Positions 21,809 to 44,560 of a DNA stretch of 64,000 bases are shown here, piece by piece. The stretch's first letter is position 1, and each line of letters begins with the position of its first letter. The notes below the pieces were generated by a model. That model ran no database searches. It saw only the letters and a list, made by a program, of their open reading frames with translations, and was not told the DNA's origin. The translations under genes and the position numbers were made by a program. Source of the DNA: Escherichia coli (GTDB lineage Bacteria > Pseudomonadota > Gammaproteobacteria > Enterobacterales > Enterobacteriaceae); assembly GCF_044324875.1 (NCBI RefSeq), contig NZ_CP172185.1. One strand, 5' to 3'.

Positions 21809-21896
21809 GGTGAGGTGTCCGAGTGGCTGAAGGAGCACGCCTGGAAAGTGTGTATACGGCAACGTATCGGGGGTTCGAATCCCCCCCTCACCGCCA
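21809..21896 (+). tRNA. serW: tRNA-Ser (anticodon GGA)
   Basis: 88-nt sequence GGTGAGGTGTCCGAGTGGCTGAAGGAGCACGCCTGGAAAG...GGTTCGAATCCCCCCCTCACCGCCA with long variable arm and encoded CCA. Confidence 0.9.
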
Positions 21897-31956: not shown

Positions 31957-32998
31957 TATTAGCGGTAAGCTGTGCGTAGGCCAGCAAATGCGGGATTATT
32001 GCCCCTGTATATTCCGGCTCTCTGATAATGTGGTCGGATGTGTTGATTAAATAGTTTGTGCGAAAAATGCACCTGTAACCATCAGTTAACAACGGATATA
32101 CAGGGGGGACCATGAATGATAAGGGGGTGCCGTTTGATGTGCTCCTGCAAAAGCTGAATGCTGCACGCGCCGCAAGGGAACGTGAGCGCATGAGTAATAA
32201 CCCTGTCCCTCCTGAATTACCTCGCCCTGAACATTTTCCGCTTGAGGATTTCATCAGGGGACGAATCCGAACAAAACGATAACCGCCGCCGTGATATGAG
32301 GCATCACGACGCAATGCATTACAGGTGAGCACCATGAACAAATCCATATTATCCCCCACAGTTCTGGACGTAAACACAAAGCAGCGACAGATATTATTAC
32401 GCGCCGTCATTAAAGCCAGACACGAGAAATTAAACCAAATCTTAAGATAAGATACGCCGCTACCGCTGTAAGTCTTCATCAGAAACAGAAAACGCCAGAG
32501 CAGATGAGCACGGAGGTAACTCTTTATGAAAATAAACGAATCAGGGGAAATTACCGAAGCCAGCGTGGTACGCCAGCGGAGGCGGGAACGACGGGTACGG
32601 CCCCCCGCGCCATCCGATAATTTCCCGCTTGAGCGCTTCATCAGTGAACGGCCCCGCATACGCTGGAACGGCACAACCCCATACCCCGAGGAGAGACAGA
32701 CAAAAAACAAACAGCGATGATGAAATCTGGAGGCCAATACCATCACCCAGCCAGTCGGGGATTGCTGGCGGGCTTCCTGTTCGCTGGTGGCCCCGATGGT
32801 AATAACGCGTGGTTGTGCTGTGCTCAGGGCGATAAAACGCCAGATGTATTTATTCAGGTTGTGCGGGTCCCGCCCTTGCGGGTGTGTGGTATGATTTAAC
32901 ATAGCTACCTCGATACGCTTTCTATCGTTGGTGGTTAGAAGCCCCGTTACTGCTCCAACAGTGCGGGGTTTCGTCGTTTCTGCACCTTTCATCAACAA

Positions 32999-33051
32999 GG
33001 TGTTGAACACCAATTTAAGCCTAGGTGTTAAACACGCCAAGTGTTGAACAC
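32999..33051. promoter_or_regulatory. Three palindromic operator-like sites (GTGTTGAACAC, GTGTTAAACAC, GTGTTGAACAC)
   Basis: Three copies of an 11-bp palindrome spaced ~20 bp apart, ~50 bp upstream of the RHH-like small ORF. Confidence 0.55.
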
Positions 33052-33100
33052 TTATTTTTTTCCTGCATACTGCATTTGTTTTTTGTAAGGGGTACACAAC

Positions 33101-33279
33101 ATGGCGACAAAAGCAGTAAACGCAAAATCACAAACAGTTGCGGCAAGGGTTCCGCATGAAGTTATGAACAATGTTGAGGCGGTAAAAATGCCTGGTGAAA
33201 GTACAGGGCAGTTTGTAACAGCAGCATTAAAGCGAGAAGTTGAATACCGCCAGCGCCGCAAGGCCAAAGAATCAGAATA
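33101..33279 (+). CDS. Ribbon-helix-helix-like small DNA-binding protein (59 aa), divergent from the island operon
   Basis: MATKAVNAKSQTVAARVPHEVMNNVEAVKMPGESTGQFVTAALKREVE fits an RHH beta-alpha-alpha pattern; AAGGGG SD. Confidence 0.4.
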
Positions 33280-33328
33280 ATCACTATCAGCGCCGTGGTG
33301 TGAGGTACTGCGGCGCATTGTTTTAAAG

Positions 33329-33529
33329 GTGATAATTATGAATAACCAGGAACTACAAAATAAAGCATTATCAATTATCATGCGCCAGCGTGAGAAAACC
33401 CGCAGGGAAATAAATAAGGCATTAACCCGCACTGAAAATCTTAAAGTTCCTGATAAGTTCGCCCTTGATCCTTTTGTCGAGAAATACCCTCGGCGCTTAA
33501 AAGCAAACAAAAACCGCCCACCTGGCTGA
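33329..33529 (+). CDS. Hypothetical small basic protein (63-66 aa) downstream of the RHH gene
   Basis: ORF with AAGGTGA SD; possible two-gene module with the RHH gene. Confidence 0.3.
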   Translation: MIIMNNQELQNKALSIIMRQREKTRREINKALTRTENLKVPDKFALDPFVEKYPRRLKANKNRPPG

Positions 33530-33667
33530 CAATCCACCAGCAAGCCACCACACTGGACACATTGCCCACCAGCCAGCAAATCGCTATGATGTTCGGGCTT
33601 ATGTTTAGTGTTTTCCCATTGGCGACCGCCCCCGGTCGCCTTTGTTTTATGTGTCATATACTCCCCT

Positions 33668-33877
33668 TTACGCTGCCTTGCCTGAATTAATGCGATCCCG
33701 GCTTTTAACCCATTCCATAACCTCGGACAGCAGCCAACCTACAGAACGCCCACCAAGATTACGGCGAGACGGAAAGCTCCCTTTTTTCTCCAGTTCGTAG
33801 CGTGTAGTGCGACACACTCCAGTTAACTTACGACATTCATCCTCACGGATTACGCGATCTTCATTTATTTCACGCAT
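33668..33877 (-). CDS. alpA: AlpA/Vis-family phage transcriptional regulator (69 aa)
   Basis: MREINEDRVIREDECRKLTGVCRTTRYELEKKGSFPSRRNLGGRSVGWLLSEVMEWV matches the AlpA (P4 Vis-like) HTH family; the track ORF is extended upstream. Confidence 0.7.
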   Translation of the reverse strand: MREINEDRVIREDECRKLTGVCRTTRYELEKKGSFPSRRNLGGRSVGWLLSEVMEWVKSRDRINSGKAA

Positions 33878-34296
33878 ACAAAAACCTACATAAAAATTAC
33901 GTATATAAACTTTTCTCTTAGCTGTAGATATATGAGATCGGATATTACTTAGATTCTTTTTCACCTCTTAAATTAAAAACACAACCATGCTAAAGGCTTT
34001 GTTCGCTAAGGTTCGTAGAAGCTCGTTAGTGTTTAAAATCGTGTCACGAGTTTTTAAGCGACGCAACAAAAAATGTCGTCATTTGGCATGTCACCTGAAT
34101 TACCTCATTAAAAACAAATAGATAAACCATCAGATGTTGGAACAATCAAGAAACAGAGAATAAGAACTCAGAAGAAGACATTTCAATTTTTTTCGATAGT
34201 TGACACATATAAAGAGAAGATATTTGCAGATATTCCCCGATATTCTAAGATCTATTCACGGCTGTAATCTCTTAAAGAAAAAACAGCCGTAATTTG

Positions 34297-35535
34297 TCAA
34301 GAATTTTGGGGGTAAATTCGCGGGGTCATAACAACGATTTTTTCATCATTGTTCTGGAGAAGCTCGAGACGGTCTACCCATAGATTAAGAGCGTCACGCT
34401 TTGCATCGAGATAACGGGAGTGGTTATAGACGCGTTGCATTCCTGGCATCTGGTGGGCAGTAAGCTGTTCGACAATATGCGGATCCACGCCTAAATCGTT
34501 CAGCATGGTTGTAAATGTGTGCCGGATGTCGTGCAACGACCAGGGGGCTTGATTAATGCGTCTGTGTGCCGTTCTTCCGTACTCTGCTACGGATGATTGC
34601 CCTTTCAGTTCTCCAAGCAATAAGCCCGTGTGCCTGTTCTGCTCCACCAGCTTCATGACGAACGGCAAGATCGCTTCCGGTATTGGCCTGAATATTGCTA
34701 CCTTCGTTTTGCTGTGTTCTTTCGGCACAGTCCAGAGCATTTCTTTAAAATCCCATTCCCGAACCTCGGAGCGTCTTAGCTCAGTGGTACGGCATCCGAA
34801 GACAATCAGAAGGCGAATTAAAGCGCTGTAGTACGGCGGGAAAATTTTTTCATCCAGTGCGCGGAGTAGCTCGCCAAGCTCCTTGTTTGTTAGCACTCGC
34901 TCGCTTATTTCTGCTTTTTTTCCCACATCACCTACGACCATATCATCAAGAACGTTACTGACGGCGTAGCGACGTTTACGGCAGTACTTAAGCGCCTGTT
35001 TGCATACCTGCAACAAAAAGCCGGCTGATACCGGATTACGCTTAGCAAGCTGGTCAAAACAGGCCAGCCAGTGGCGTAGCTCGCATTTATCCAGCGGCAT
35101 AGCACCAATCTGGCTGATTATGTGCTTATTGATACGGCTTTTCAGTGATTCGTGGTCAGTGCGCTTTTCCTTCGCATACGACTCAAGCCAGTAAGTGAGC
35201 GCGTCCTTAACCGTCACGGGGGCTAACGCTTCCTGCACTGTGTGATTAAGCTCATGGCGTGGATTTTTCCCCTCCGCCAGCCAGGCGCGACACTGTGCCG
35301 CTTTTTCCCTGGCTGCTTTCAGGCTCAGATCGGGATAGTTGCCCAGTCTCAGGCGTTCCGGTGATACCTGCCTGCCAGTTCCGGCCCTGTAAGTGAAATA
35401 CCAGGTTAACAGGCCGCTGGTGGAATGTCTTACGCTAAGATTGCCACCGTCATTAAAAAAGGCGTTTTTTGTGGTTGGTGATCCGCTTAATTTTCGTAAA
35501 AGAGTGTCGCTAAGTCTATGAATTGCGCTGCTCAT
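34297..35535 (-). CDS. int: P4-type tyrosine integrase (412 aa)
   Basis: C-terminal catalytic region with HDIRHT and RVYNHSRY motifs; att repeat 25 bp upstream of the start. Confidence 0.85.
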   Translation of the reverse strand: MSSAIHRLSDTLLRKLSGSPTTKNAFFNDGGNLSVRHSTSGLLTWYFTYRAGTGRQVSPERLRLGNYPDLSLKAAREKAAQCRAWLAEGKNPRHELNHTVQEALAPVTVKDALTYWLESYAKEKRTDHESLKSRINKHIISQIGAMPLDKCELRHWLACFDQLAKRNPVSAGFLLQVCKQALKYCRKRRYAVSNVLDDMVVGDVGKKAEISERVLTNKELGELLRALDEKIFPPYYSALIRLLIVFGCRTTELRRSEVREWDFKEMLWTVPKEHSKTKVAIFRPIPEAILPFVMKLVEQNRHTGLLLGELKGQSSVAEYGRTAHRRINQAPWSLHDIRHTFTTMLNDLGVDPHIVEQLTAHQMPGMQRVYNHSRYLDAKRDALNLWVDRLELLQNNDEKIVVMTPRIYPQNS

Positions 35536-35559
35536 GTTTCGCGTTTCCGGTCATCAAAA

Positions 35560-35583
35560 TTAACTACACCATTGACTACACCG
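35560..35583 (+). repeat. Right att-type direct repeat (TTAACTACACCATTGACTACACCG)
   Basis: Matches 25219..25242 with one mismatch. Confidence 0.7.
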
Positions 35584-35938
35584 TGCATCGTACAAGGGCA
35601 AACCGTGACGAACAAGAGCGAACAAGTAAAACAAAATTTTCCTTTATAATCATAGCGATGAATGCACACAAAACACTACCACGAACACCCGCGAACACTA
35701 GATGATAAATAACTATCATCTATCGTTGGCATCAGGACATCTGTCACATTCCTGTCAATAGCGTTAACTGCTTCAAATTTTTGATTCATACCTGCCCCCT
35801 GGCCCCTGTCAAATGCTTGACGGCTCGCCCTAATTCTCTAAATTGTATTTCTAGAGTTGGCGAGGTTTTGAACAGCCCCCTCTCTGACCCCGGTTTATTC
35901 CATCTTACTTGTATAAGATTTGCGAAGGATGTCGAAGC

Positions 35939-36163
35939 ATGGAAAAGGGTACTGTTAAGTGGTTCAACAATGCCAAAGGGTTTGGTTTCATCTGCCCTGA
36001 AGGCGGCGGCGAAGATATTTTCGCTCATTATTCCACCATTCAGATGGATGGTTACAGAACGCTAAAAGCTGGACAATCCGTTCAGTTTGATGTCCACCAG
36101 GGGCCAAAAGGCAATCACGCCAGTGTTATTGTGCCCGTCGAAGTAGAAGCGGCAGTCGCATAG
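35939..36163 (+). CDS. cspD: Stationary-phase cold-shock-domain protein CspD
   Basis: 74 aa MEKGTVKWFNNAKGFGFICPEGGGEDIFAHYSTIQ... (CSD with RNP motifs). Confidence 0.95.
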   Translation: MEKGTVKWFNNAKGFGFICPEGGGEDIFAHYSTIQMDGYRTLKAGQSVQFDVHQGPKGNHASVIVPVEVEAAVA

Positions 36164-36235
36164 CTCTTCTGTCTCATTGTGTACATCCTAAAGGCAAAAT
36201 GCCAGCCCGATCGGCTGGCATTTTTATCTCAAAAA

Positions 36236-38182
36236 TTACTCTCGTGCCAGAGCATCTACTGGATCCAGTCGTGCCGCATTTCGTGCGGGTAACCAGCCAA
36301 ATAAAATCCCGGTGACCGTCGAGCAGAGAAACGCCAGCAGCAGCGCCAACGGTGAAAAACCAATCTCCCAGCCGGGTAAGAAAAGCTGTAAGGTGAAAGC
36401 AATTAACAATGACAGTGTTATTCCCAACGCGCCACCGACCAGGCAAACCAGTACGGCTTCGATCAGGAACTGTTGCAAAACATCGCTTGCTCGCGCACCT
36501 ACAGCCATGCGAATGCCAATTTCCCGCGTCCGCTCGGTCACTGACACCAGCATAATATTCATTACACCAATACCGCCCACCACCAGCGAAATCACCGCCA
36601 CCAGCGTCAGAAACAGTTGTAAAGTACGTGTGGTCTTTTCAACGGTTTTCAAGACGCCGTCCATGTTCCAGGTAAAGAAATCCTTTTTTCCGTGGCGCAG
36701 TGAAAGTAAACGCATGAGTTGCTGTTCCGCCTCAGCGCTGTCAAATCCTTCTTTCACCCTGACAGTAATGGAGTTCAGCCACGACTGGCCCATAACTCGC
36801 CCGGACATCGTGCTGTAAGGTAGCCAGACACGCAGCACTTTACTGCTACCAAACATCGACTGTTTTTCTTCCGCCACACCAATGACTCTGGCGGGCATAT
36901 TGCCGACCAGAATCACCTCGCCAACCACATCTGCTTTATGGGGGAAAAGCTGGCGGCGAGTATTACTGTCGAGAACTACGACCTGCGCACGACCGTTCAG
37001 CTGCTCCTGATTAAAGGTGTTCCCTTCACTGAAGGTCATGCCATAGACATTAAAATAATCGCCGCTCACGCCATTGGCACTGGCAGCCACATCAACATTG
37101 TTATAACGCAGGCGCAGGTTTTGCGAGACGGCAGGTGTGGCTGAGGCGACCCACGGTTGTTTTTGGATGGCGATTAAGTCATCGTACTTCAGCGCCTGCT
37201 GATATTGCGGATCGTCATCGCCAAAATCTTTCCCGGGATAGACATCAATAGTATTCGTACCAATAGAACGAATATCCGCCAGCACCATTTGTTTGGCGGC
37301 GTCACCCACCACGACAATGGAAACCACCGACGCAATACCGATAATAATCCCCAGCATGGTCAGTAAAGTACGCATTTTATTCGCTGCCAGCGCCCGCCAT
37401 GCCATCGTCAGCGCCTCGTTAAAACCGCTGACAAACTGCCGCCAGCCAGACGCCGTGTTGACAGCAGGTTCCGTCCCGCCAGCAACATTCACTTTTTCAA
37501 TGGCGGGAGGATTGCGCACAATTTCGCTGTCGCGAATTTCGATCACCCGCTCGGCCTGAGCAGCGACCTGCGGATCGTGGGTGACGATAATCACCGTATG
37601 CCCGCGATCGCGCAGCTGATGCAGGATCGCCATCACCTCTTCGCCAGAATGGCTGTCCAGTGCGCCGGTCGGTTCATCGGCAAGAATTACCTGACCGCCG
37701 TTCATCAATGCCCGCGCGATGCTGACGCGCTGTTGCTGACCACCCGAAAGCTGTGCCGGATAATACTCTGTACGGTCTTCCAGCCCCAGTCGTTGCAGCA
37801 ACTCCTGGGCGCGAAGCAGCCGCTGTTTCCGCTCAAGACCGGCATAGACGGCGGGTACTTCAACGTTCTGCTCGGCGGTTAAATGCGAAAGCAAATGGTA
37901 ACGCTGGAAAATAAAGCCGAAATGCTCGCGGCGCAGTTGCGCCAGCGCATCGGCGTCCAGTGTGGCAACATCCTGACCGGCGACGCGATAGGTGCCGCTG
38001 GTGGCCTTATCCAGGCAGCCGAGAATATTCATCAGGGTCGATTTGCCGGAACCCGAAGCGCCGACAATCGCCACCATCTCACCAGCATAAATATCGAGGG
38101 TGATGCCCTTCAGCACCTCAACCTGCTCATCACCGGCAGGATAGCTGCGACGAATATCCTTTAATTCGAGCAAGGGCGTCAT
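36236..38182 (-). CDS. macB: Macrolide export ABC transporter MacB
   Basis: 648 aa; N-terminal NBD (GASGSGKST) and C-terminal FtsX-like permease. Confidence 0.95.
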
Positions 38183-39294
38183 TGTGCAGCTCCTGGTTTG
38201 GCCTCACCAATCACCACTTCATCGCCCGCTTCCAGCCCTTTGACAATCTCAACATCGGTATCGTTACGTGCGCCAATCGTCACTTCACGCTCGCGTGTTT
38301 CACCATTACGCAACAATTTGACTTTATAACGATTATCGCCAACCGGATCGCCTAACGCCGACAGAGGGATCGTCAGCACATTTTTCACATCGGTGAGCTG
38401 AATATGCACTTGCGCGGTCATATCCAGCCGCAGCAAACCATTGGGGTTGGGGACTTCAAAACGGGCGTAATAGAAAATAGCGTCGTTAACCTTTTCCGGC
38501 GTCGGTAGCACATCCTTGATTTGCCCCTCGTAGCGCGTCAGCGGATCGCCAAGCACCGTAAACCAGGCTTTTTGCCCCGACTTCAGGTGGATTACATCCG
38601 CTTCAGAAACCTGCGCTTTTACCAGCATGGTGCTCATATCTGCCAGCGTCAGAATGTTCGGTGCTTGTTGTGCGGCAATCACCGTTTGGCCTTGCAGAGT
38701 GGTGATTTGCGTGACTTCCCCGGCCATCGGGGCAACGATGCGGGTGTAATCGAGATTGCTTTTAGCCGTATCGAGTGAGGCCTGATTGCGCTTGATTTGC
38801 GCGTCAATGGTGCCAATTTGCGCCTGTTTCACAGCCATCTCCGTCGCGGCGGTATCAAGATCCTGCTGTGAAACCGCTTGCGTTTGTGCAAGACGTTGCT
38901 GACGGGAATACGTCACCCGCGCCAGTTTCAGCTCCGCTTCCGCCTGCTGCCGCTGCGCGCGTAGCTCCATCAGCGTTGCTTCCACCTCCTTAATCTGGTT
39001 TTCAGCCTGTTCAGGATCAATAACCCCTAAAAGCTGGTCTTTTTTTACTTTATCGCCAATCGCCACCGACAGCGTTTTCAACTGACCGCTGACCTGCGCG
39101 CCCACATCAACCTTACGCAGCGCGTCCAGCTTTCCGGTCGCCAGCACGCTTTGCTGTAAATCACCGGGGCGCACAATCAGCGTCTGATAAGTCGGCACGG
39201 GTGCGTTAAGAATTCTCCATAACGTAATCAGCCCGGCAATGACTATCACCAGCGCAATAACGTAACGCTTCTTCACGGTTTTCCGCTTTTTCAT
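38179..39294 (-). CDS. macA: Macrolide export membrane-fusion protein MacA
   Basis: 371 aa from [21 protein letters not shown]...; stop overlaps the macB start. Confidence 0.95.
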
Positions 39295-39408
39295 AAATAT
39301 TCTGAATACTCCATATGCCAATCCGGGTCATTAACTTCAACGAAATATCAACAAAACCCTAAAATTTACGTTAGTAATCACACTATTGATGTTTGGTTAA
39401 GATACGCA

Positions 39409-40401
39409 ATGGTGAAATCGACGTCATGTATAACCATTGATTTCATGAATATGTCGCAGCTAACTGAACGGACCTTTACGCCATCTGAATCTCTCAGCAG
39501 CCTGTCACTTTTTCTTAGTCTGGCACGTGGACAGTGTCGGCCGGGTAAATTCTGGCATCGCCGTAGTTTTCGCCAGAAATTTTTGCTGCGCTCGTTGATT
39601 ATGCCGCGTTTAAGCGTTGAGTGGATGAACGAACTTTCCCACTGGCCTAATCTCAATGTGTTGTTAACGCGCCAGCCGCGACTGCCTGTGCGTCTGCATC
39701 GCCCTTACCTTGCGGCGAATCTTAGCCGTAAGCAATTGCTGGAGGCGTTACGTTACCATTATGCGTTACTCCGCGGGTGTATGTCGGCGGAAGAATTCAG
39801 CTTATATTTGAATACCCCCGGGCTGCAACTGGCGAAGCTGGAAGGCAAAAACGGCGAGCAGTTCACACTTGAGCTGACCATGATGATCTCAATGGATAAA
39901 GAAGGTGACAGCACAATCCTGTTCCGCAACAGCGAAGGTATTCCTCTGGCAGAGATCACGTTTACCCTGTGTGAATATCAGGGGAAAAGAACAATGTTTA
40001 TTGGCGGACTGCAAGGCGCAAAATGGGAAATTCCACATCAGGAAATCCAGAATGCGACGAAAGCCTGCCACGGGCTATTTCCCAAACGCCTTGTGATGGA
40101 AGCAGCCTGTCTGTTTGCCCAACGTTTGCAGGTAGAGCAGATCATTGCCGTCAGCAATGAAACACATATTTACCGCAGCCTGCGTTATCGCGATAAAGAA
40201 GGCAAGATCCATGCTGATTACAACGCGTTCTGGGAGTCGGTCGGCGGCGTATGTGATGCTGAACGCCATTACCGCCTTCCGGCACAGATAGCACGAAAAG
40301 AGATTGCCGAAATCGCCAGTAAAAAACGGGCTGAATACCGTCGGCGCTATGAGATGCTCGACGCTATTCAGCCACAAATGGCCACGATGTTTAGCGGTTA
40401 A
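39409..40401 (+). CDS. ybjX: VirK/YbjX-family protein
   Basis: 330-aa ORF in conserved position between macA and ybjD; exact start uncertain. Confidence 0.8.
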   Translation: MVKSTSCITIDFMNMSQLTERTFTPSESLSSLSLFLSLARGQCRPGKFWHRRSFRQKFLLRSLIMPRLSVEWMNELSHWPNLNVLLTRQPRLPVRLHRPYLAANLSRKQLLEALRYHYALLRGCMSAEEFSLYLNTPGLQLAKLEGKNGEQFTLELTMMISMDKEGDSTILFRNSEGIPLAEITFTLCEYQGKRTMFIGGLQGAKWEIPHQEIQNATKACHGLFPKRLVMEAACLFAQRLQVEQIIAVSNETHIYRSLRYRDKEGKIHADYNAFWESVGGVCDAERHYRLPAQIARKEIAEIASKKRAEYRRRYEMLDAIQPQMATMFSG

Positions 40402-42056
40402 TCCGCGCGACCGCGCGCCAGCCACAGCACGCGTGAGAACATTTTTTTCAGCAGCGTCGGTACGGAATCCACACCACGACGTCCTGCCTCCATTGCCACT
40501 TCAATGGCAAGATCGGGTTTGGAAGAGCGATGGATCGCTTTCGAGATAATTTTGCGCAGATTCATCGGTACATTTTCCGGGATTTGAGCCACGCGGTGGA
40601 ACACATCGGAAAATCCCTGGCGATACATAAAATGTTCCATATCCAGCGCCGGTAACGCCGTTAAATGTTCTCGTTCGGCTTCCCGATCGTTATTCAACAG
40701 GCTGCGTACCGTAGCGGCATATTTCTTCCCTGCTTCATCGCCATCGACCAGTACATGCCATTCAATCCCCATTCGCCGGGCAAATTTAACCAGTGGCTTT
40801 AGCCCGGACTGGGCAAACTCAATGACCTTGATCCCTTCGGCATCAAAATGATGTCCGCACTGACGCGCCAGTTCATTGATAACCCAGGTTTCCGTTTCGC
40901 CTTCCACCAGCAGCCAGCAGCGTGCAAACAACGATGACGGACGATTAAAACGAATGTGGAAAGAGATGCGTCGGCTATCTTCGGTACTCAAACCACTCGG
41001 CCCCAGACGCCAGGCGGCAACGCGCGAGGACTCACGTACCAGTCGGCAAACATGCTCTACTGGCGTTAACGAAAGCAACTCACCCGAGTTGGTGGTGGCA
41101 ATGCGCTGCAATGGCAGAAGATTCAACAGATGCCAGGCAACTGAAAGCATAATGGGGTGTAAACGGGTTTCTGGATCTTCGATCAGCAACAATGGACGGG
41201 CGTCTTTATCCAGTCGCAATGTGCCTTTTGCCTGCAATAAAGTAGCAAACAGGCCGAGCAAAATAACCCGATACGAGCGCCCTCCAGGTCGGTCAATCAT
41301 CCTGTTGATGATATCCAGATAGCGCCAGCTTCGTTGCTCATTGCTGGCCCGCCGCCGCATTAAACGATATCGCGCCTGTCCGGCCCCCTGCTCAGAGAAA
41401 TAATGCTCAAGCAGCTGTACCATTGCGGAAAGTCCCTGACGAATCTGCCCATCAGAGAGATTTTGCGGATGTGAGGATAGCTCACGGGCGAGGAAATCGA
41501 GCTGGCGCGCGGTGACTTCCACATTAGGGACATTTGGCACCGTGCCGTTACGAATACGGCGCATAAAACGGGCATCACGCAAGCGCAGCACCGGCATTAA
41601 ACGCACCAGATGGCGTGCCTGGTCGTTAATATCCTCGACATCAATCGGATGTCCGTCTTTATCGAGAAAACTGCGCAGTGTCATCACGCTGCCGTCTTCC
41701 GCACTCTCCCCTTCCAGACGATAAAAAATACGGTGATAGCCATCGGTGCATGGCGTCCAGCACGCTTCCAGCGGCCGATAGCGGCGAACCCGATGTCGGC
41801 CTGGCAGCGATTCGCGGAAGGTCAAAATAATATGCAGATGATGTTCTCGCCCGTTGATATCTCCCGGCGGGAACCAGAAATCGTCGCGCTCAAAATGGTA
41901 GAGATCTGATTCTGGCGATAGCAGCAGGGTTAAGGCGTCCAGCAAGCTGGATTTACCCCACGCGTTCTCCCCAATCAGGACGTTGTTTTGTTCCAGCATC
42001 AACGACAAACGGTTGATACCGCGAAAACCCACAATTTCAACGCGCTCAAGAATCAT
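40398..42056 (-). CDS. ybjD: OLD-family ATPase/nuclease (AAA-ATPase + Toprim) YbjD
   Basis: 552 aa; N-terminal ABC-type ATPase (NVLIGENAWGKSSLLDAL); conserved chromosomal position. Confidence 0.85.
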   Translation of the reverse strand: MILERVEIVGFRGINRLSLMLEQNNVLIGENAWGKSSLLDALTLLLSPESDLYHFERDDFWFPPGDINGREHHLHIILTFRESLPGRHRVRRYRPLEACWTPCTDGYHRIFYRLEGESAEDGSVMTLRSFLDKDGHPIDVEDINDQARHLVRLMPVLRLRDARFMRRIRNGTVPNVPNVEVTARQLDFLARELSSHPQNLSDGQIRQGLSAMVQLLEHYFSEQGAGQARYRLMRRRASNEQRSWRYLDIINRMIDRPGGRSYRVILLGLFATLLQAKGTLRLDKDARPLLLIEDPETRLHPIMLSVAWHLLNLLPLQRIATTNSGELLSLTPVEHVCRLVRESSRVAAWRLGPSGLSTEDSRRISFHIRFNRPSSLFARCWLLVEGETETWVINELARQCGHHFDAEGIKVIEFAQSGLKPLVKFARRMGIEWHVLVDGDEAGKKYAATVRSLLNNDREAEREHLTALPALDMEHFMYRQGFSDVFHRVAQIPENVPMNLRKIISKAIHRSSKPDLAIEVAMEAGRRGVDSVPTLLKKMFSRVLWLARGRAD

Positions 42057-42481
42057 ATCCCCTCCAGAAATATGTGACTTATCCTTTACGCTGGCAGTAT
42101 AACGGGAAAGGCCATGCTAATACGTGATGACATCACATTTAAGCATGGCAAATGTCTGAAAAATGAGCGAATAATCGCGTTATACTCCCTCTTGCTGATA
42201 AGCCTGCAAAAACAACAAAATCAAATAATTAGCATGATAAATTATTTTTTATTACGCCTAAAGGATTAAATCTTTTGCTTGCACTACACTGTCAATCAGA
42301 CAAATGACTATATGGGGCAACCCGCTGTTGCCCTAAATCAAATTTACTGGATTTATTTATCTGGTGAATGACTCGCCTTCGTTTTTAAAATAGCCGCGCA
42401 TTATTTCCGTCGTCACTTTTTTACGACGACCCTATAAAACGACCATATTTTTCACAGGGTCAATTTTTAATTGAGGTGGAT

Positions 42482-43177
42482 ATGTTCAGAAAATTAGCAG
42501 CTGAATGTTTTGGTACTTTCTGGCTTGTTTTTGGTGGCTGTGGTAGTGCCGTACTGGCCGCAGGCTTCCCGGAATTAGGCATTGGTTTTGCCGGCGTGGC
42601 GCTGGCATTCGGTCTGACCGTTCTGACGATGGCCTTTGCTGTTGGTCATATTTCTGGTGGTCATTTTAACCCGGCGGTCACTATTGGTTTATGGGCTGGC
42701 GGACGTTTCCCGGCAAAAGAAGTCGTTGGCTACGTAATTGCCCAGGTTGTCGGCGGTATTGTTGCGGCGGCGCTGCTGTATTTAATTGCCAGTGGTAAAA
42801 CGGGTTTTGACGCGGCAGCCAGCGGTTTTGCTTCTAACGGTTATGGCGAGCATTCGCCAGGCGGTTATTCCATGCTTTCCGCGCTGGTAGTTGAACTGGT
42901 ATTGAGTGCAGGTTTCCTGCTGGTGATCCACGGCGCAACCGACAAATTCGCTCCTGCTGGTTTTGCGCCGATCGCTATTGGTCTGGCCTTAACCCTGATT
43001 CACTTAATCAGTATTCCGGTGACTAACACTTCTGTTAACCCGGCGCGCAGCACCGCGGTTGCTATCTTCCAGGGCGGCTGGGCATTAGAACAACTGTGGT
43101 TCTTCTGGGTGGTGCCAATTGTCGGCGGCATTATCGGTGGTCTGATTTACCGGACCCTGCTGGAAAAACGTAATTAA
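42482..43177 (+). CDS. aqpZ: Aquaporin Z
   Basis: 231 aa with two NPA motifs (HFNPAV, SVNPAR). Confidence 0.95.
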
Positions 43178-43186
43178 TTAACGCAG

Positions 43187-43216
43187 AAGGCCTGGCGCAA
43201 TGTCAGGCCTTTTTTA
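43187..43216 (+). terminator. aqpZ rho-independent terminator
   Basis: AGGCCTGGCGCAATGTCAGGCCT hairpin + T-run. Confidence 0.6.
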
Positions 43217-43239
43217 AATATATTTATTCATCTTCCTGT

Positions 43240-43500
43240 TGCGCTCCTTGATGTGTTAAGCCACATATAGTCACTGGCGCAGGGAGCGCGCAGGGGGCGG
43301 CCAATCGCCGCCGCCCCCTGCACCCCCGGGCTCTGGCGAACAAAATCGCCGCTGCGCGGTGCCCTCGACTTATCCCTTGCGGCTACCGGGTCGGGCGCGA
43401 GGTAACATCCCTGTAAAACGCGCCCTCAGCCCACATCCATGTGGGCTGCCCCGGCCTTCAGGGAACGCCTCGGCGATTTTGACGCCACCAACACCGGTGC
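43240..43500. repeat. GC-rich palindromic intergenic element
   Basis: Long inverted repeats (GCAGGGGGCGGC..GCCGCCGCCCCCTGC; GCCCACATCCATGTGGGC) in a ~70% GC segment unlike its surroundings. Confidence 0.5.
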
Positions 43501-43660
43501 GGTTTGTAATTAAAGCGCAAGAATATCTTTAAATGAAAATGAATACCCTACCGATCCTTATGCATAACATTTCCTTTTAATTGCAACTTTACTCGTCCTT
43601 CCGCTTTCAGTAGTGTGTCATCGCGCATTTCGACTTCATCTTTGCAAGGACTGGGTTTTC

Positions 43661-44560
43661 ATGTTTTCTGGGCTGTTAATCATTCTGGTTCCCCTGATTG
43701 TGGGTTACCTCATTCCTCTTCGCCAAAAAGCTGCATTAAGAGTTATTAATCAGCTATTAAGCTGGATGGTTTACCTCATTCTCTTTTTTATGGGTATCAG
43801 TCTGGCGTTTCTCGATAACCTCGCCAGTAACCTGTTGGCGATTCTGCATTATTCCGCCGTCAGCATTACCATTATTTTACTCTGCAATATTATTGCGTTG
43901 TTGTGGCTGGAGCGCGGTCTGCCGTGGCGCAACCACCACCAGCAAGAAAAACTCCCGTCGCGTATTGCGATGGCGCTGGAGTCGCTAAAACTGTGCGGCG
44001 TAGTAGTGATTGGTTTTGCCATTGGTCTGAGTGGACTGGCTTTCTTACAACACGCGACCGAAGCCAGTGAATACACCTTAATTCTGCTACTTTTCCTCGT
44101 CGGTATTCAGTTGCGCAATAATGGCATGACCTTAAAGCAGATTGTCCTTAATCGCCGGGGAATGATTGTCGCCGTGGTGGTGGTTGCCAGTTCATTAATT
44201 GGTGGTTTAATTAACGCCTTTATTCTTGATCTTCCCATCAATACCGCGCTGGCAATGGCCTCTGGTTTCGGCTGGTATTCTCTTTCCGGTATTTTATTGA
44301 CCGAATCTTTTGGTCCGGTAATCGGGAGCGCGGCGTTTTTTAATGATCTGGCCCGTGAGCTGATTGCAATTATGTTGATCCCTGGGCTGATTCGCCGCAG
44401 CCGCTCTACCGCACTGGGCTTATGCGGTGCGACGTCGATGGATTTCACCCTGCCCGTTCTTCAACGTACTGGCGGGCTGGATATGGTCCCGGCGGCAATT
44501 GTTCACGGTTTTATTCTTAGCCTGTTAGTGCCGATCCTCATCGCCTTTTTCTCTGCGTAA
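43661..44560 (+). CDS. lysO: Lysine exporter LysO (YbjE)
   Basis: 299-aa polytopic membrane protein from MFSGLLIILVPLIVGY. Confidence 0.9.
   Translation: MFSGLLIILVPLIVGYLIPLRQKAALRVINQLLSWMVYLILFFMGISLAFLDNLASNLLAILHYSAVSITIILLCNIIALLWLERGLPWRNHHQQEKLPSRIAMALESLKLCGVVVIGFAIGLSGLAFLQHATEASEYTLILLLFLVGIQLRNNGMTLKQIVLNRRGMIVAVVVVASSLIGGLINAFILDLPINTALAMASGFGWYSLSGILLTESFGPVIGSAAFFNDLARELIAIMLIPGLIRRSRSTALGLCGATSMDFTLPVLQRTGGLDMVPAAIVHGFILSLLVPILIAFFSA

What the first reader, a model, noticed from the sequence alone, without database searches (positions are those of the whole stretch)
40398..42056. OLD-family ATPase-nuclease (ybjD) in a conserved core position near the satellite insertion
YbjD has the ABC-ATPase plus Toprim organisation of OLD-family proteins, whose P2-encoded founding member (Old) excludes lambda. 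The chromosomal copy is conserved but functionally obscure. Its proximity (about 5 kb) to a cos-type satellite that depends on lambdoid helpers makes a functional interaction worth testing.
Basis: established knowledge. Interest (0 to 1): 0.3.

Follow-up and report, generated by a model that had tools for sequence, protein, structure and literature searches.

The report
Core E. coli OLD nuclease YbjD
This is the ordinary E. coli core gene ybjD (recently renamed oldB), a stand-alone ATPase-nuclease of the OLD family that has already been described and tested against phages. Nothing in the sequence ties it to the phage satellite that happens to sit 4.8 kb away.

Summary
Window 40398-42056 (-) encodes the 552-aa YbjD, which has an ABC-type ATPase (DUF2813) plus an OLD-type Toprim domain. 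It differs by one residue from E. coli K-12 YbjD.

The finding is already published. YbjD seeded the 2019 OLD-family survey, which placed E. coli among the Class 1 members. A 2026 paper (PMC13261556) ran the proposed experiments:
- The deletion has no phage phenotype.
- Over-expression weakly restricts a few BASEL phages.
- The Toprim domain and Walker A lysine are dispensable for that effect.
- YbjD does not kill recBC-deficient cells as P2 Old does.

My additions:
- The gene is present in 5424 of 5426 complete E. coli genomes.
- It keeps the same chromosomal slot across Enterobacterales and never has a partner gene.
- It evolves as slowly as its housekeeping neighbours (dN/dS 0.015-0.07).
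- All ATPase and two-metal Toprim residues are invariant, and the Toprim core is the most constrained part.
- Its C-terminal region resembles Class 2 (Gabija-type) OLD proteins.

The satellite is a sporadic insertion: about 7% of genomes have that site interrupted. Proximity is therefore not evidence of interaction. Verdict: already known, low interest. One open question remains: what does the strongly conserved nuclease do?

The parts
40398..42056 (-). ybjD (oldB) coding sequence, 552 aa plus stop codon
   Evidence: ORF list; Pfam DUF2813 + OLD-like_TOPRIM; RefSeq annotation of identical loci; 551/552 identical to K-12 YbjD.
41946..41972 (-). Walker A / P-loop, residues 29-37 (GENAWGKSS; K35)
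   Evidence: Motif positions. G29 97%, G34 96%, K35 88% (+9% R) across 115 family representatives. K35 invariant in 79 orthologues. Aligns with P2 Old K37.
41226..41528 (-). Four-helix insertion in the ATPase fold, residues 177-277. This is the predicted dimerisation domain as in Ts OLD.
41157..41192 (-). Walker B and D-loop, residues 289-300 (LLLIEDPETRLH; E293, D294, H300)
   Evidence: BLASTP and MAFFT alignment with P2 Old D299/E300/H306. E293 90%, H300 98% in the family. Invariant in orthologues.
41079..41096 (-). H-loop, residues 321-326 (TTNSGE), with Asn323 in place of the canonical His
   Evidence: Aligns with P2 Old H332. Family: N 63%, H 16%, Q 11%, Y 8%. N invariant in 79 Enterobacterales orthologues. 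Schiltz et al. 2020 note that Asn is a frequent H-loop variant in Class 1 homologues.
40617..40925 (-). Toprim core, residues 378-480, with the two-metal site. Metal A: E385, D438, D440. Metal B: E389, D472, E474.
   Evidence: Pfam PF20469. E385, E389, D438 and D440 align with P2 Old E398/E402/D453/D455. D472/E474 are assigned to metal B by motif position only: MAFFT aligned them to P2 D508/K520 rather than D541/E543, and hhalign did not reach this region. 95-100% conserved in 115 family representatives. Invariant in orthologues apart from one D472N. Lowest dN/dS of the protein, 0.005-0.055.
40401..40616 (-). C-terminal helical region, residues 481-552, with invariant K513-P514. K513 is the candidate catalytic lysine, Class 2-like.
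42096..42101 (-). Conserved -10-like hexamer TATACT (in CGyTATACT), about 40 nt upstream of the start codon. This is the putative own promoter of ybjD.
   Evidence: Alignment of upstream regions from 18 Enterobacterales genera; the element is kept in Enterobacteriaceae at a near-constant distance. No partner gene upstream on the same strand. Transcript detected by RT-qPCR in K-12 (PMC13261556). The consensus scan did not call it, so it is putative.
42059..42065 (-). Shine-Dalgarno GGAGGGG, ending 2 nt upstream of the ATG at 42054-42056
   Evidence: Sequence. The GGAGG core is conserved in nearly all 18 genera.
40398..40401 (.). Tail-to-tail overlap of the ybjD and ybjX stop codons (TTAA); convergent transcription units
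   Evidence: ORF coordinates; sequence. ybjD-ybjX is listed as a convergent excludon from RNA-seq in PMC12288877.

Best explanation
The ORF is ybjD/oldB, a monocistronic, vertically inherited core gene of Enterobacterales. It encodes a stand-alone OLD-family enzyme.

Shown:
- It has an ABC-type ATPase with intact Walker A (K35), Walker B (E293/D294) and D-loop (H300), and an Asn at the H-loop position.
- A four-helix insertion matches the OLD dimerisation domain.
- The Toprim domain has a complete two-metal acidic site (E385/D438/D440 and E389/D472/E474).
- A C-terminal helical bundle resembles that of Class 2 OLD proteins.
- The gene is kept under purifying selection as strong as its housekeeping neighbours, strongest on the Toprim core.
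- It has no partner gene anywhere.
- It has no association with the neighbouring satellite.

Inferred mechanism:
- YbjD is a dimeric, nucleotide-gated nuclease.
- ATP binding at the P-loop, with slow turnover because of the H-loop Asn, holds the protein in a restrained state.
- Release of that state lets the Toprim site, probably completed by K513, nick or cut a nucleic acid. The substrate is DNA or a structured RNA such as a tRNA.

Inferred role:
- The conserved nuclease is dispensable for the only phage phenotype seen, and that phenotype needs over-expression.
- I therefore think its selected role is a host function that uses the nuclease: genome or RNA maintenance, or low-level surveillance.
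- The published anti-phage effect would then be a secondary property of the ATPase/dimerisation part.
- It does not work like P2 Old, because it is not triggered by RecBCD loss. It is not functionally coupled to the cos-type island.
For: Identity and architecture:
- ORF, domains and annotation.

Catalytic residues:
- Mapped against P2 Old and the residue lists of PMC7049728.
- 95-100% conserved in 115 representatives of clusters at <=50% identity.
- Invariant in 79 orthologues.

Vertical inheritance and no partner:
- 5424/5426 E. coli genomes.
- The 80 best genome loci are all Enterobacterales, with identity falling along taxonomy from 97% to 64%.
- The gene always lies between lysO/hcp(/aqpZ) and (ybjX/macAB/)cspD-clpS, with flanking gaps mostly under 500 bp.
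- Distant DUF2813 genes in Vibrio, Chitinilyticum and Motilimonas are also alone among housekeeping genes.
- No UvrD/GajB neighbour was seen in any locus.

Selection:
- dN/dS is 0.015-0.016 against close relatives, where dS is unsaturated (0.46-0.80).
- The Toprim core is at 0.005-0.010.
- Neighbours MacB, LysO, Hcp and AqpZ are at 0.03-0.08; YbjX is at 0.2 or more.

Experiments in PMC13261556:
- The transcript is present.
- The deletion has no phage phenotype.
- The over-expression phenotype is independent of the Toprim domain and of K35.
- K35A is more toxic.
- There is no recBC-ts lethality.

Other:
- MG1655 tolerates Gam alone (PMC12445682).
- Island sporadic, gene fixed.
Against: - No biochemical activity of YbjD has been shown; nuclease and ATPase activity are inferred from conserved residues.
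- The host-function reading is indirect. No growth or repair phenotype of the deletion is known.
- I found no LexA box, no known regulatory RNA and no conserved operator that would point to a pathway.
- A core, constitutively expressed defence gene is not impossible. The 68 phages tested are a small sample, so absence of a knockout phenotype is weak evidence.
- Intergeneric dS values above about 1.5 are saturated, so those dN/dS ratios are approximate.
Confidence: 0.55

Rival explanations
1. YbjD is a dedicated single-gene anti-phage defence (Class 1 OLD) that happens to be fixed in the core genome. Its natural triggers and target phages are simply not among those tested. At native level it would use the Toprim nuclease for abortive infection or for cleaving phage nucleic acid.
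For: - All characterised bacterial OLD proteins act in phage defence (PMC10568477 listing; PMC12392090; PMC12445682).
- Over-expressed YbjD reduces plaquing of Bas18/Bas20 and plaque size of Bas64-68 without measurable toxicity at 0.001% arabinose.
- PADLOC GajA/Old profiles match strongly.
- The catalytic machinery is intact.
- Vc OLD also protects only modestly from its native locus.
Against: - The deletion does not change plating of 68 phages. The over-expression effect needs neither the Toprim domain nor K35.
- The gene shows none of the usual hallmarks of defence genes. There is no presence/absence variation, no defence-island or mobile context, and strict vertical inheritance with a housekeeping-level substitution rate.
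- DefenseFinder-type Class 1 OLD genes occur in 0.45% of genomes. This gene is in every E. coli and in the Enterobacterales orthologue loci recovered here.
Confidence: 0.33
2. YbjD interacts functionally with the neighbouring cos-type satellite or its lambdoid helper, for example by excluding lambda-like phages as P2 Old does, and its position near the insertion reflects that link.
For: - P2 Old, the founding member, excludes lambda.
- The island 4.8 kb away carries a lambda Nu1-type small terminase and so probably exploits lambdoid helpers.
- Lambda and satellites were not included in the published YbjD phage panel.
Against: - ybjD is fixed and position-stable across an entire bacterial order. 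The att site between clpS and yljB/cspD is interrupted in only about 7% of E. coli genomes, and this island is in about 5. There is therefore no co-occurrence signal.
- Five unrelated genes separate them.
- YbjD is not toxic in a recBC-ts strain, which is the very signal that activates P2 Old.
- MG1655, which carries ybjD, shows only a slight defect when Gam is expressed alone.
- By general knowledge, K-12 strains carrying ybjD are standard permissive hosts for lambda.
- YbjD shares only 28% identity with P2 Old over about 200 residues, and its C-terminal region is unalignable.
Confidence: 0.04
3. YbjD is a decaying relic: an OLD-derived protein whose ATPase and/or nuclease are no longer catalytic. 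This was suggested by the non-canonical H-loop Asn and the dispensability of the Toprim domain.
For: - The H-loop His is replaced by Asn323. H-loop His to Ala abolishes ATPase activity in Ts OLD.
- The Toprim domain and K35 are dispensable for the published phenotype.
Against: - Every metal ligand is present and invariant, and the Toprim core has the lowest dN/dS.
- Only 1 of 80 orthologue loci has a disrupted frame (L070).
- Asn at the H-loop is a common variant among Class 1 homologues rather than a lesion, and it is itself invariant in 79 orthologues.
- K35A changes toxicity, so the nucleotide site is functional.
Confidence: 0.02

Closest known systems
E. coli K-12 YbjD (b0876), proposed name OldB (PMC13261556; seed of the OLD survey in PMC6755086)
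   Same: It is the same gene: 551/552 residues identical, the same neighbours aqpZ and ybjX, and the published primers match exactly. All published properties should transfer.
   Different: One conservative substitution (V489 here, M489 in K-12). In this strain a 10.3-kb satellite is inserted 4.8 kb away between clpS and yljB/cspD, which K-12 lacks.
Thermus scotoductus OLD (Class 1; PDB 6P74, PMC7049728)
   Same: - Stand-alone gene.
- ABC ATPase with an inserted four-helix dimerisation domain plus a Toprim domain.
- Glu at the Walker B position and His in the D-loop.
- Two-metal acidic site.
   Different: - Ts OLD has no C-terminal helical domain and places R487 in a loop.
- YbjD has four C-terminal helices (473-547) and an invariant K513.
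- The H-loop is His in Ts and Asn in YbjD.
- Only about 21% identity.
Class 2 OLD proteins: Gabija GajA (PDB 8U7I, 8SM3, 8X5I) and Burkholderia pseudomallei OLD (6NK8)
   Same: - The C-terminal region, including the helical bundle, superposes on the Bp OLD CTR (164 residues, 2.3 A).
- The strongest PADLOC profile is a GajA model (7e-80).
   Different: No UvrD/PcrA-like GajB helicase lies next to ybjD or next to any relative examined. It is therefore not a Gabija system. Sequence identity is 12-17%.
Bacteriophage P2 Old (founding Class 1 member)
   Same: - Single gene.
- Same motif set: K37/D299/H306/E398/E402/D453/D455 align with K35/E293/H300/E385/E389/D438/D440.
- Constitutively expressed.
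   Different: - P2 Old is prophage-encoded, is activated by RecBCD inhibition (Gam), cleaves tRNA-Thr(UGU) and kills recBC cells.
- YbjD is chromosomal and core, and is not lethal in recBC-ts.
- The H-loop is His versus Asn.
- The C-terminal 100 residues are unalignable.
Vibrio cholerae Vc OLD (Class 1, DNA-nicking defence; PMC12392090)
   Same: It is a bacterially encoded stand-alone OLD protein that gives only modest protection from its native locus.
   Different: - The paper sets Vc OLD in the context of the flux of mobile defence elements in V. cholerae and names a phage-encoded inhibitor, Oad1.
- According to PMC13261556, mutating its conserved ATP-binding residues abolishes defence, whereas YbjD K35A retains the anti-phage phenotypes.
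- YbjD is immobile and core.
Cran1, an archaeal OLD-family ATPase of Sulfolobales (PMC12796447)
   Same: - An OLD-family gene that is vertically inherited across a whole order and recapitulates the species tree.
- Apparently not an antiviral gene.
- The ATPase rather than the nuclease is critical for its known function.
- This parallels YbjD's inheritance pattern and its ATPase-dependent, Toprim-independent phenotype.
   Different: - Cran1 is essential and tied to the cell cycle; ybjD is non-essential (Keio deletion viable).
- It belongs to a different clade.
- In YbjD the nuclease residues are the most conserved part, so the nuclease is unlikely to be vestigial.

Membership tests
OLD family (ABC ATPase + Toprim nucleases) | N-terminal ABC-type ATPase with Walker A GxxxxGK[ST] | tested here: met
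   G29-ENAWGK35-S36. AAA_15/AAA_21/SMC_N P-loop hits. Conserved in the family and invariant in orthologues.
OLD family (ABC ATPase + Toprim nucleases) | Walker B acidic pair followed by the OLD-type D-loop histidine (hhhh[ED][ED]PE..LH) | tested here: met
   LLLIE293-D294-PETRLH300 aligns with P2 Old D299/E300/H306. H300 is 98% conserved.
OLD family (ABC ATPase + Toprim nucleases) | H-loop residue after the 'T-[HN]-S' strand. It is His in Ts OLD and P2 Old; Schiltz et al. 2020 report that an Asn exchange also occurs among Class 1 homologues. | tested here: met
   T322-N323-S324: the Asn variant. It is invariant in 79 orthologues. The statement on Asn frequency is from PMC7049728. The effect on ATP turnover is untested.
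OLD family (ABC ATPase + Toprim nucleases) | Helical dimerisation domain inserted into the ATPase fold | tested here: met
   [not shown]
OLD family (ABC ATPase + Toprim nucleases) | C-terminal Toprim domain with metal A ligands (E ... DxD) | tested here: met
   PF20469 E 3.8e-16. E385, D438 and D440 align with P2 E398/D453/D455. 98-99% conserved in the family.
OLD family (ABC ATPase + Toprim nucleases) | Metal B ligands (acidic residue at E+4, and a [DST]xE motif downstream) | tested here: met
   E389 (98%) aligns with P2 E402. D472-M-E474 (95%/99%) lies at the expected place after the last Toprim strand. The mapping of D472/E474 rests on motif and position only; MAFFT placed them opposite P2 D508/K520, not D541/E543.
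OLD family (ABC ATPase + Toprim nucleases) | Catalytic Lys/Arg completing the active site (Bp K562, Ts R487, P2 K550) | tested here: inconclusive
   Two candidates. K513 is 99-100% conserved and lies in the C-terminal helical bundle that superposes on the Bp OLD CTR. R479 is R/K in orthologues but variable in the wider family. No residue-level superposition was available.
OLD family (ABC ATPase + Toprim nucleases) | Metal-dependent nuclease and ATPase activity in vitro | not testable with these tools
   No biochemical data for YbjD were found in the papers read.
Class 1 OLD (defined by gene context: stand-alone gene; Schiltz 2019, Dot 2023) | No adjacent UvrD/PcrA-like helicase, no retron RT/ncRNA, and ATPase and Toprim in one polypeptide | tested here: met
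   Neighbours are aqpZ (divergent) and ybjX (convergent). Across 80 Enterobacterales loci the flanking gaps are mostly under 500 bp and the neighbours are lysO/hcp/aqpZ and ybjX/macA/cspD. No Rfam hit was found in the region.
Ts OLD-type Class 1 architecture | Absence of the C-terminal helical domain found in Class 2 proteins | tested here: not met
   YbjD has helices 473-490, 500-510, 513-527 and 534-547. 164 residues of its C-terminal region superpose on the Class 2 Bp OLD CTR at 2.3 A. I therefore do not file it under the Ts OLD structural subtype, only under context-defined Class 1.
Gabija (GajA/GajB, Class 2 OLD) | GajA encoded in tandem with the GajB UvrD-like helicase | tested here: not met
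   No helicase gene lies next to ybjD in the window, in 80 orthologous loci, or next to six more distant DUF2813 relatives.
P2 Old-type lambda exclusion | Activation by loss or inhibition of RecBCD (lethal in recBC hosts; triggered by lambda Gam) | not testable with these tools
   Published experiment: YbjD expression is not lethal in recBC-ts SK129, whereas P2 Old is (PMC13261556). MG1655 with native ybjD tolerates Gam alone (PMC12445682). By those data the feature is not met.
Typical anti-phage defence gene (pan-genome behaviour) | Patchy presence/absence, location in defence islands or mobile elements, horizontal transfer | tested here: not met
   Present in 5424/5426 E. coli genomes. Syntenic across Enterobacterales with identity tracking taxonomy. 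dN/dS is like the housekeeping neighbours. Distant relatives sit among housekeeping genes.

The most novel reading that the evidence does not exclude
YbjD/OldB, and the DUF2813 clade of Proteobacteria as a whole, may be a domesticated OLD nuclease. Its selected function would then be a host process such as DNA or RNA maintenance that uses the invariant Toprim active site, not phage defence. This would be the bacterial counterpart of the archaeal Cran1 case. The weak, Toprim-independent anti-phage effect on over-expression would be incidental. A sub-point: it would be a Gabija-like (Class 2-type) nuclease module that works without a helicase partner.
Probability: 0.35. Interest if true: 0.55.

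Novelty: already known. Interest (0 to 1): 0.2.

Why it matters
As written, the finding adds nothing new. The gene, its family, its class and the proposed phage assays are in the literature, and the suggested link to the satellite has no support.

What remains worth attention is a mismatch. The only phenotype known for YbjD does not need its nuclease. Yet the nuclease active site is the most strongly conserved part of a protein that an entire bacterial order has kept in one chromosomal slot.

Resolving what that nuclease cuts would assign a function to one of the remaining uncharacterised E. coli genes. It would also show whether OLD-family enzymes have non-defence roles in bacteria, as has been reported for one archaeal member.

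Tried and rejected
- **SOS regulation.** A LexA-box search (CTGT-N8-ACAG, up to 1 mismatch) found no site between 37783 and 45169, and the window-wide count is not above chance.
- **Known RNA elements around ybjD and the island.** No Rfam family reached its gathering score in 24000-44000.
- **Operator.** A 19-nt-arm palindrome at 42111-42149 looked like one. It is kept only in E. coli and E. albertii, not in other genera, so I do not count it as part of the system.
- **Consensus sigma-70 scan.** It found no promoter upstream of ybjD. The conserved TATACT was found only by comparative alignment.
- **A hidden partner gene (GajB-like helicase).** I looked in 80 orthologous loci and six distant relatives and found none. 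One relative lies between a PhD/PIN toxin-antitoxin pair and a family B DNA polymerase gene. That is a single case and I draw no conclusion from it.
- **Residue-level mapping of the C-terminal catalytic Lys.** HMMER profile matches to PDB sequences stop at the DxD motif. hhalign against P2 Old stops at residue 458. Model coordinates are not exposed to the script environment. The K513 assignment therefore stays inferential.
- **Long relatives (1000-1900 aa).** I checked them for informative fusions. Pfam sees only the OLD domains, with large unannotated insertions and extensions.
- **Literature crumbs on expression.** None points to a pathway: mild induction by a cathelicidin-type peptide in UTI89, the EnrR ChIP peak in Edwardsiella, and detection in a Salmonella proteome.
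- **TLS and gap-repair papers.** They mention ybjD only because the aqpZ-ybjD intergenic region is used as a neutral insertion site.


Full report
**1. Observation**

The window has an ATG-to-stop ORF of 552 codons at exactly 40398..42056 on the minus strand.
- Its product matches Pfam DUF2813 over residues 1-375 (E 2.1e-160) and the OLD-like Toprim model PF20469 over 376-440 (E 3.8e-16). Several P-loop/SMC-type models match the first 50 residues.
- NCBIfam gives only N-terminal P-loop hits far below the family cut-offs.
- PADLOC gives GajA and Old profiles (best 7e-80 and 2e-24).
- RefSeq annotates the same locus in other E. coli genomes as 'ybjD: ATP-dependent endonuclease', flanked by aqpZ and ybjX.
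- The protein is 551/552 identical to K-12 b0876.

**2. Surroundings and the satellite**

Gene order in the window is clpA, clpS, [island], yljB, cspD, macB, macA, ybjX, ybjD, aqpZ, lysO, hcp, hcr, poxB.

The island:
- It is bounded by 24/25-nt direct repeats at 25218-25242 and 35559-35583, 10,341 bp apart, and has iterons at 29245-29420.
- It encodes a tyrosine integrase, AlpA, a D5-type primase, SSB, PerC, ProQ/FinO and a lambda Nu1-family small terminase (E 2.7e-75).
The real distance is 4.8 kb, with five genes in between.

Proximity, however, is all there is.
- The 1-kb empty clpS-cspD site is contiguous in 5057 of 5424 genomes, so about 7% carry some insertion there.
- Only five genomes share 80% or more of this island.
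- ybjD itself is present, single copy and at 95% or higher nucleotide identity, in 5424 of 5426 complete genomes.

A fixed gene next to a sporadic insertion site gives no co-occurrence signal.

**3. What is already known**

- YbjD was the query used by Schiltz et al. (2019) to collect the OLD family. That survey listed E. coli among the Class 1 members, meaning stand-alone genes (PMC6755086).
  - The transcript is detectable.
  - The Keio deletion plates 68 BASEL phages like the parent.
  - pBAD-YbjD at 0.001% arabinose reduces plaquing of Bas18 and Bas20 and shrinks plaques of Bas64-68.
  - Mutating the three putative catalytic Toprim acidic residues, or deleting residues 378-552, changes nothing. 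Deleting the ATPase domain abolishes the effect.
  - K35A keeps the effect and is more toxic.
  - YbjD, unlike P2 Old, does not kill a recBC-ts strain.
- The authors propose the name oldB. Their cloning primers match the window without mismatch, so these results apply to this allele.
- P2 Old is now known to be triggered by Gam-mediated RecBCD inhibition and to cut the anticodon stem of tRNA-Thr(UGU). In that work MG1655, which carries ybjD, showed only a slight defect when Gam was expressed alone (PMC12445682). This again shows that native YbjD is not a P2 Old-type sensor.

**4. Catalytic residues**

I used the residue lists from the Ts OLD structure paper (PMC7049728) and alignments with P2 Old.

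| Element | YbjD residues |
|---|---|
| Walker A | K35 |
| Walker B | E293/D294 |
| D-loop | H300 |
| H-loop | N323 |
| Metal A | E385, D438, D440 |
| Metal B | E389, D472, E474 |

- E385, E389, D438 and D440 align directly with P2 Old E398/E402/D453/D455. D472/E474 are assigned to metal B by motif and position only; the automatic alignment did not pair them with P2 D541/E543.
- Asn in place of the H-loop histidine is described in that paper as a variant that also occurs among Class 1 homologues.
- An exhaustive search found 335 clusters (at 50% identity) with E < 1e-30.
- In 115 full-length representatives the Toprim ligands are 95-100% conserved. So are E387, H367, W381 and a K513-P514 pair.
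- In 79 Enterobacterales orthologues all of these are invariant, apart from one D472N.

The residues are not degenerate.

**5. Structure**

- An AlphaFold2 model built on a 63-sequence alignment is confident (pLDDT 88.8, pTM 0.87).
- It shows the ABC fold, a four-helix insertion (177-277) at the place of the Ts OLD dimerisation domain, a Toprim core, and four C-terminal helices (473-547).
- Foldseek ranks GajA first (E 3.5e-19), followed by Ts OLD (5e-16) and then the retron-Eco8 OLD nuclease.
- YbjD 378-552 is 175 residues, so the match must include the helical bundle. Ts OLD lacks that bundle.
- YbjD is therefore Class 1 by context but has a Class 2-type C-terminal architecture. The invariant K513 is the likely counterpart of the Class 2 catalytic lysine.
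- This last step is an inference. Sequence-profile alignments stop before this region, and I had no coordinates to check the geometry.

**6. Evolutionary behaviour**

- A scan of one genome per species recovered 494 relatives. The 80 best are all Enterobacterales.
- Identity declines along taxonomy: E. albertii 97%, Citrobacter about 90%, Klebsiella/Enterobacter about 85%, Cedecea/Buttiauxella about 80%, Pectobacterium/Brenneria 67-68%, Serratia 65-66%, Hafnia 64%.
- In all of them ybjD sits between lysO/hcp (with or without aqpZ) and cspD-clpS (with or without ybjX and macAB). Flanking gaps are mostly under 500 bp. In Pectobacterium the order is simply lysO-ybjD-cspD.
- The gene is therefore older in this slot than several of its neighbours, and it never has a partner.
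- dN/dS against close relatives, where dS is unsaturated, is 0.015-0.016 overall and 0.005-0.010 for the Toprim core.
- In intergeneric comparisons it stays at 0.03-0.07. That is similar to macB, lysO, hcp and aqpZ, and about five-fold lower than ybjX.
- More distant DUF2813 genes in Vibrio hibernica, Chitinilyticum and Motilimonas are also single genes among housekeeping genes. No relative examined has a UvrD-like neighbour.
- Upstream of ybjD, a -10-like CGyTATACT and a GGAGG Shine-Dalgarno are conserved across genera. This fits a gene with its own promoter.

**7. Interpretation**

- The identity of the gene is certain.
- The most likely mechanism is a dimeric, nucleotide-gated Toprim nuclease. 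The K35A toxicity suggests that ATP binding restrains the protein, as reported for GajA (cited).
- The natural substrate and trigger are unknown.
- The key tension is this: the nuclease is the most constrained part of a strictly vertically inherited core gene, yet it is irrelevant to the only phage phenotype, which also needs over-expression.
- I therefore favour a host function for the nuclease, with the anti-phage effect secondary (about 0.55). A dedicated but under-sampled defence role comes next (about 0.33).
- The archaeal Cran1 case shows that an order-wide, vertically inherited OLD gene can have a non-defence role. The authors of the YbjD paper raise the same possibility.
A decaying relic gets about 0.02.

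**8. Verdict**

The gene and its classification are already known, the proposed experiments are already published, and the satellite link is unsupported. Interest is low. The modest additions here are the order-wide synteny and selection data, the invariance of the active site, and the Class 2-like C-terminal domain.

Noticed in passing
window 25218-35615: A 10.3-kb integrative island lies between clpS and yljB/cspD. It is bounded by 24/25-nt direct repeats (25218-25242 and 35559-35583). It encodes an integrase (34297-35535), AlpA (33668-33964), a D5-type primase (29429-31177), SSB, PerC, ProQ/FinO and a lambda Nu1-family small terminase (26604-27188). Three GGGGTAGAGGGCTTTT iterons lie at 29245-29420, just downstream of the primase gene, and look like a replication origin. 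Only 5 of 5426 E. coli genomes share 80% or more of it. Related islands with a capsid gene occupy the same site in others.
   Followed up: partly
window 31670-33097 (- strand): RefSeq annotates a 477-aa 'Icd-like' protein here in identical islands. The translation looks low-complexity and non-protein-like over most of its length, and small ORFs lie on the opposite strand (32112-32282, 32526-32720, 33101-33280). The long ORF may be an over-call covering a regulatory or short-gene region. Tandem Repeats Finder found no tandem repeat.
   Followed up: partly
window 42111-42149: A 19-nt-arm imperfect palindrome (GCCATGCTTAAATGTGATG T CATCACGTATTAGCATGGC) lies just upstream of the putative ybjD -10 element. 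It is kept in E. coli and E. albertii but not in other genera. It resembles a CRP half-site arrangement but with a 5-nt rather than 6-nt spacer. Its function is unknown.
   Followed up: partly
window 40398-40401: The stop codons of ybjD and ybjX overlap tail-to-tail in TTAA. The pair is listed as a convergent 'excludon' in an RNA-seq survey (PMC12288877). The tight tail-to-tail spacing is kept in most Enterobacteriaceae that have ybjX. ybjX evolves about five times faster than ybjD.
   Followed up: partly
proteins P0149, P0162, P0163, P0165, P0175, P0196 (relatives): These are YbjD-like proteins of 1000-1900 aa. They have large insertions inside the ATPase domain, at the position where SMC/Rad50 carry coiled coils, and long C-terminal extensions with no Pfam match. 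They may be SMC-like giant OLD proteins.
   Followed up: partly
L089 832-2532 and L090 801-2501 (metagenome contigs): A DUF2813 OLD gene lies directly between a PhD/PIN toxin-antitoxin pair and a family B DNA polymerase gene on the same strand, 47 bp apart. This is a single observation.
   Followed up: no
L004 6001-7656: The GTDB species representative labelled 'Escherichia coli strain SCPM-O-B-8794' has a ybjD that is 98.7% identical in protein to the window copy but differs at dS 0.46. That is far more than usual within E. coli. The record may belong to a cryptic Escherichia lineage.
   Followed up: no
L070 (Citrobacter amalonaticus AUH_CA_2023_1): This is the only one of 80 orthologous loci where the ybjD frame is interrupted (119-aa product, match length 1658 nt). 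It could be a frameshift pseudogene or an assembly indel.
   Followed up: no
window 21809-21896: tRNA-Ser(GGA) (serW) lies downstream of infA. RefSeq annotates an RtT-like sRNA just after the same tRNA in a related genome (L001 11510-11646).
   Followed up: no
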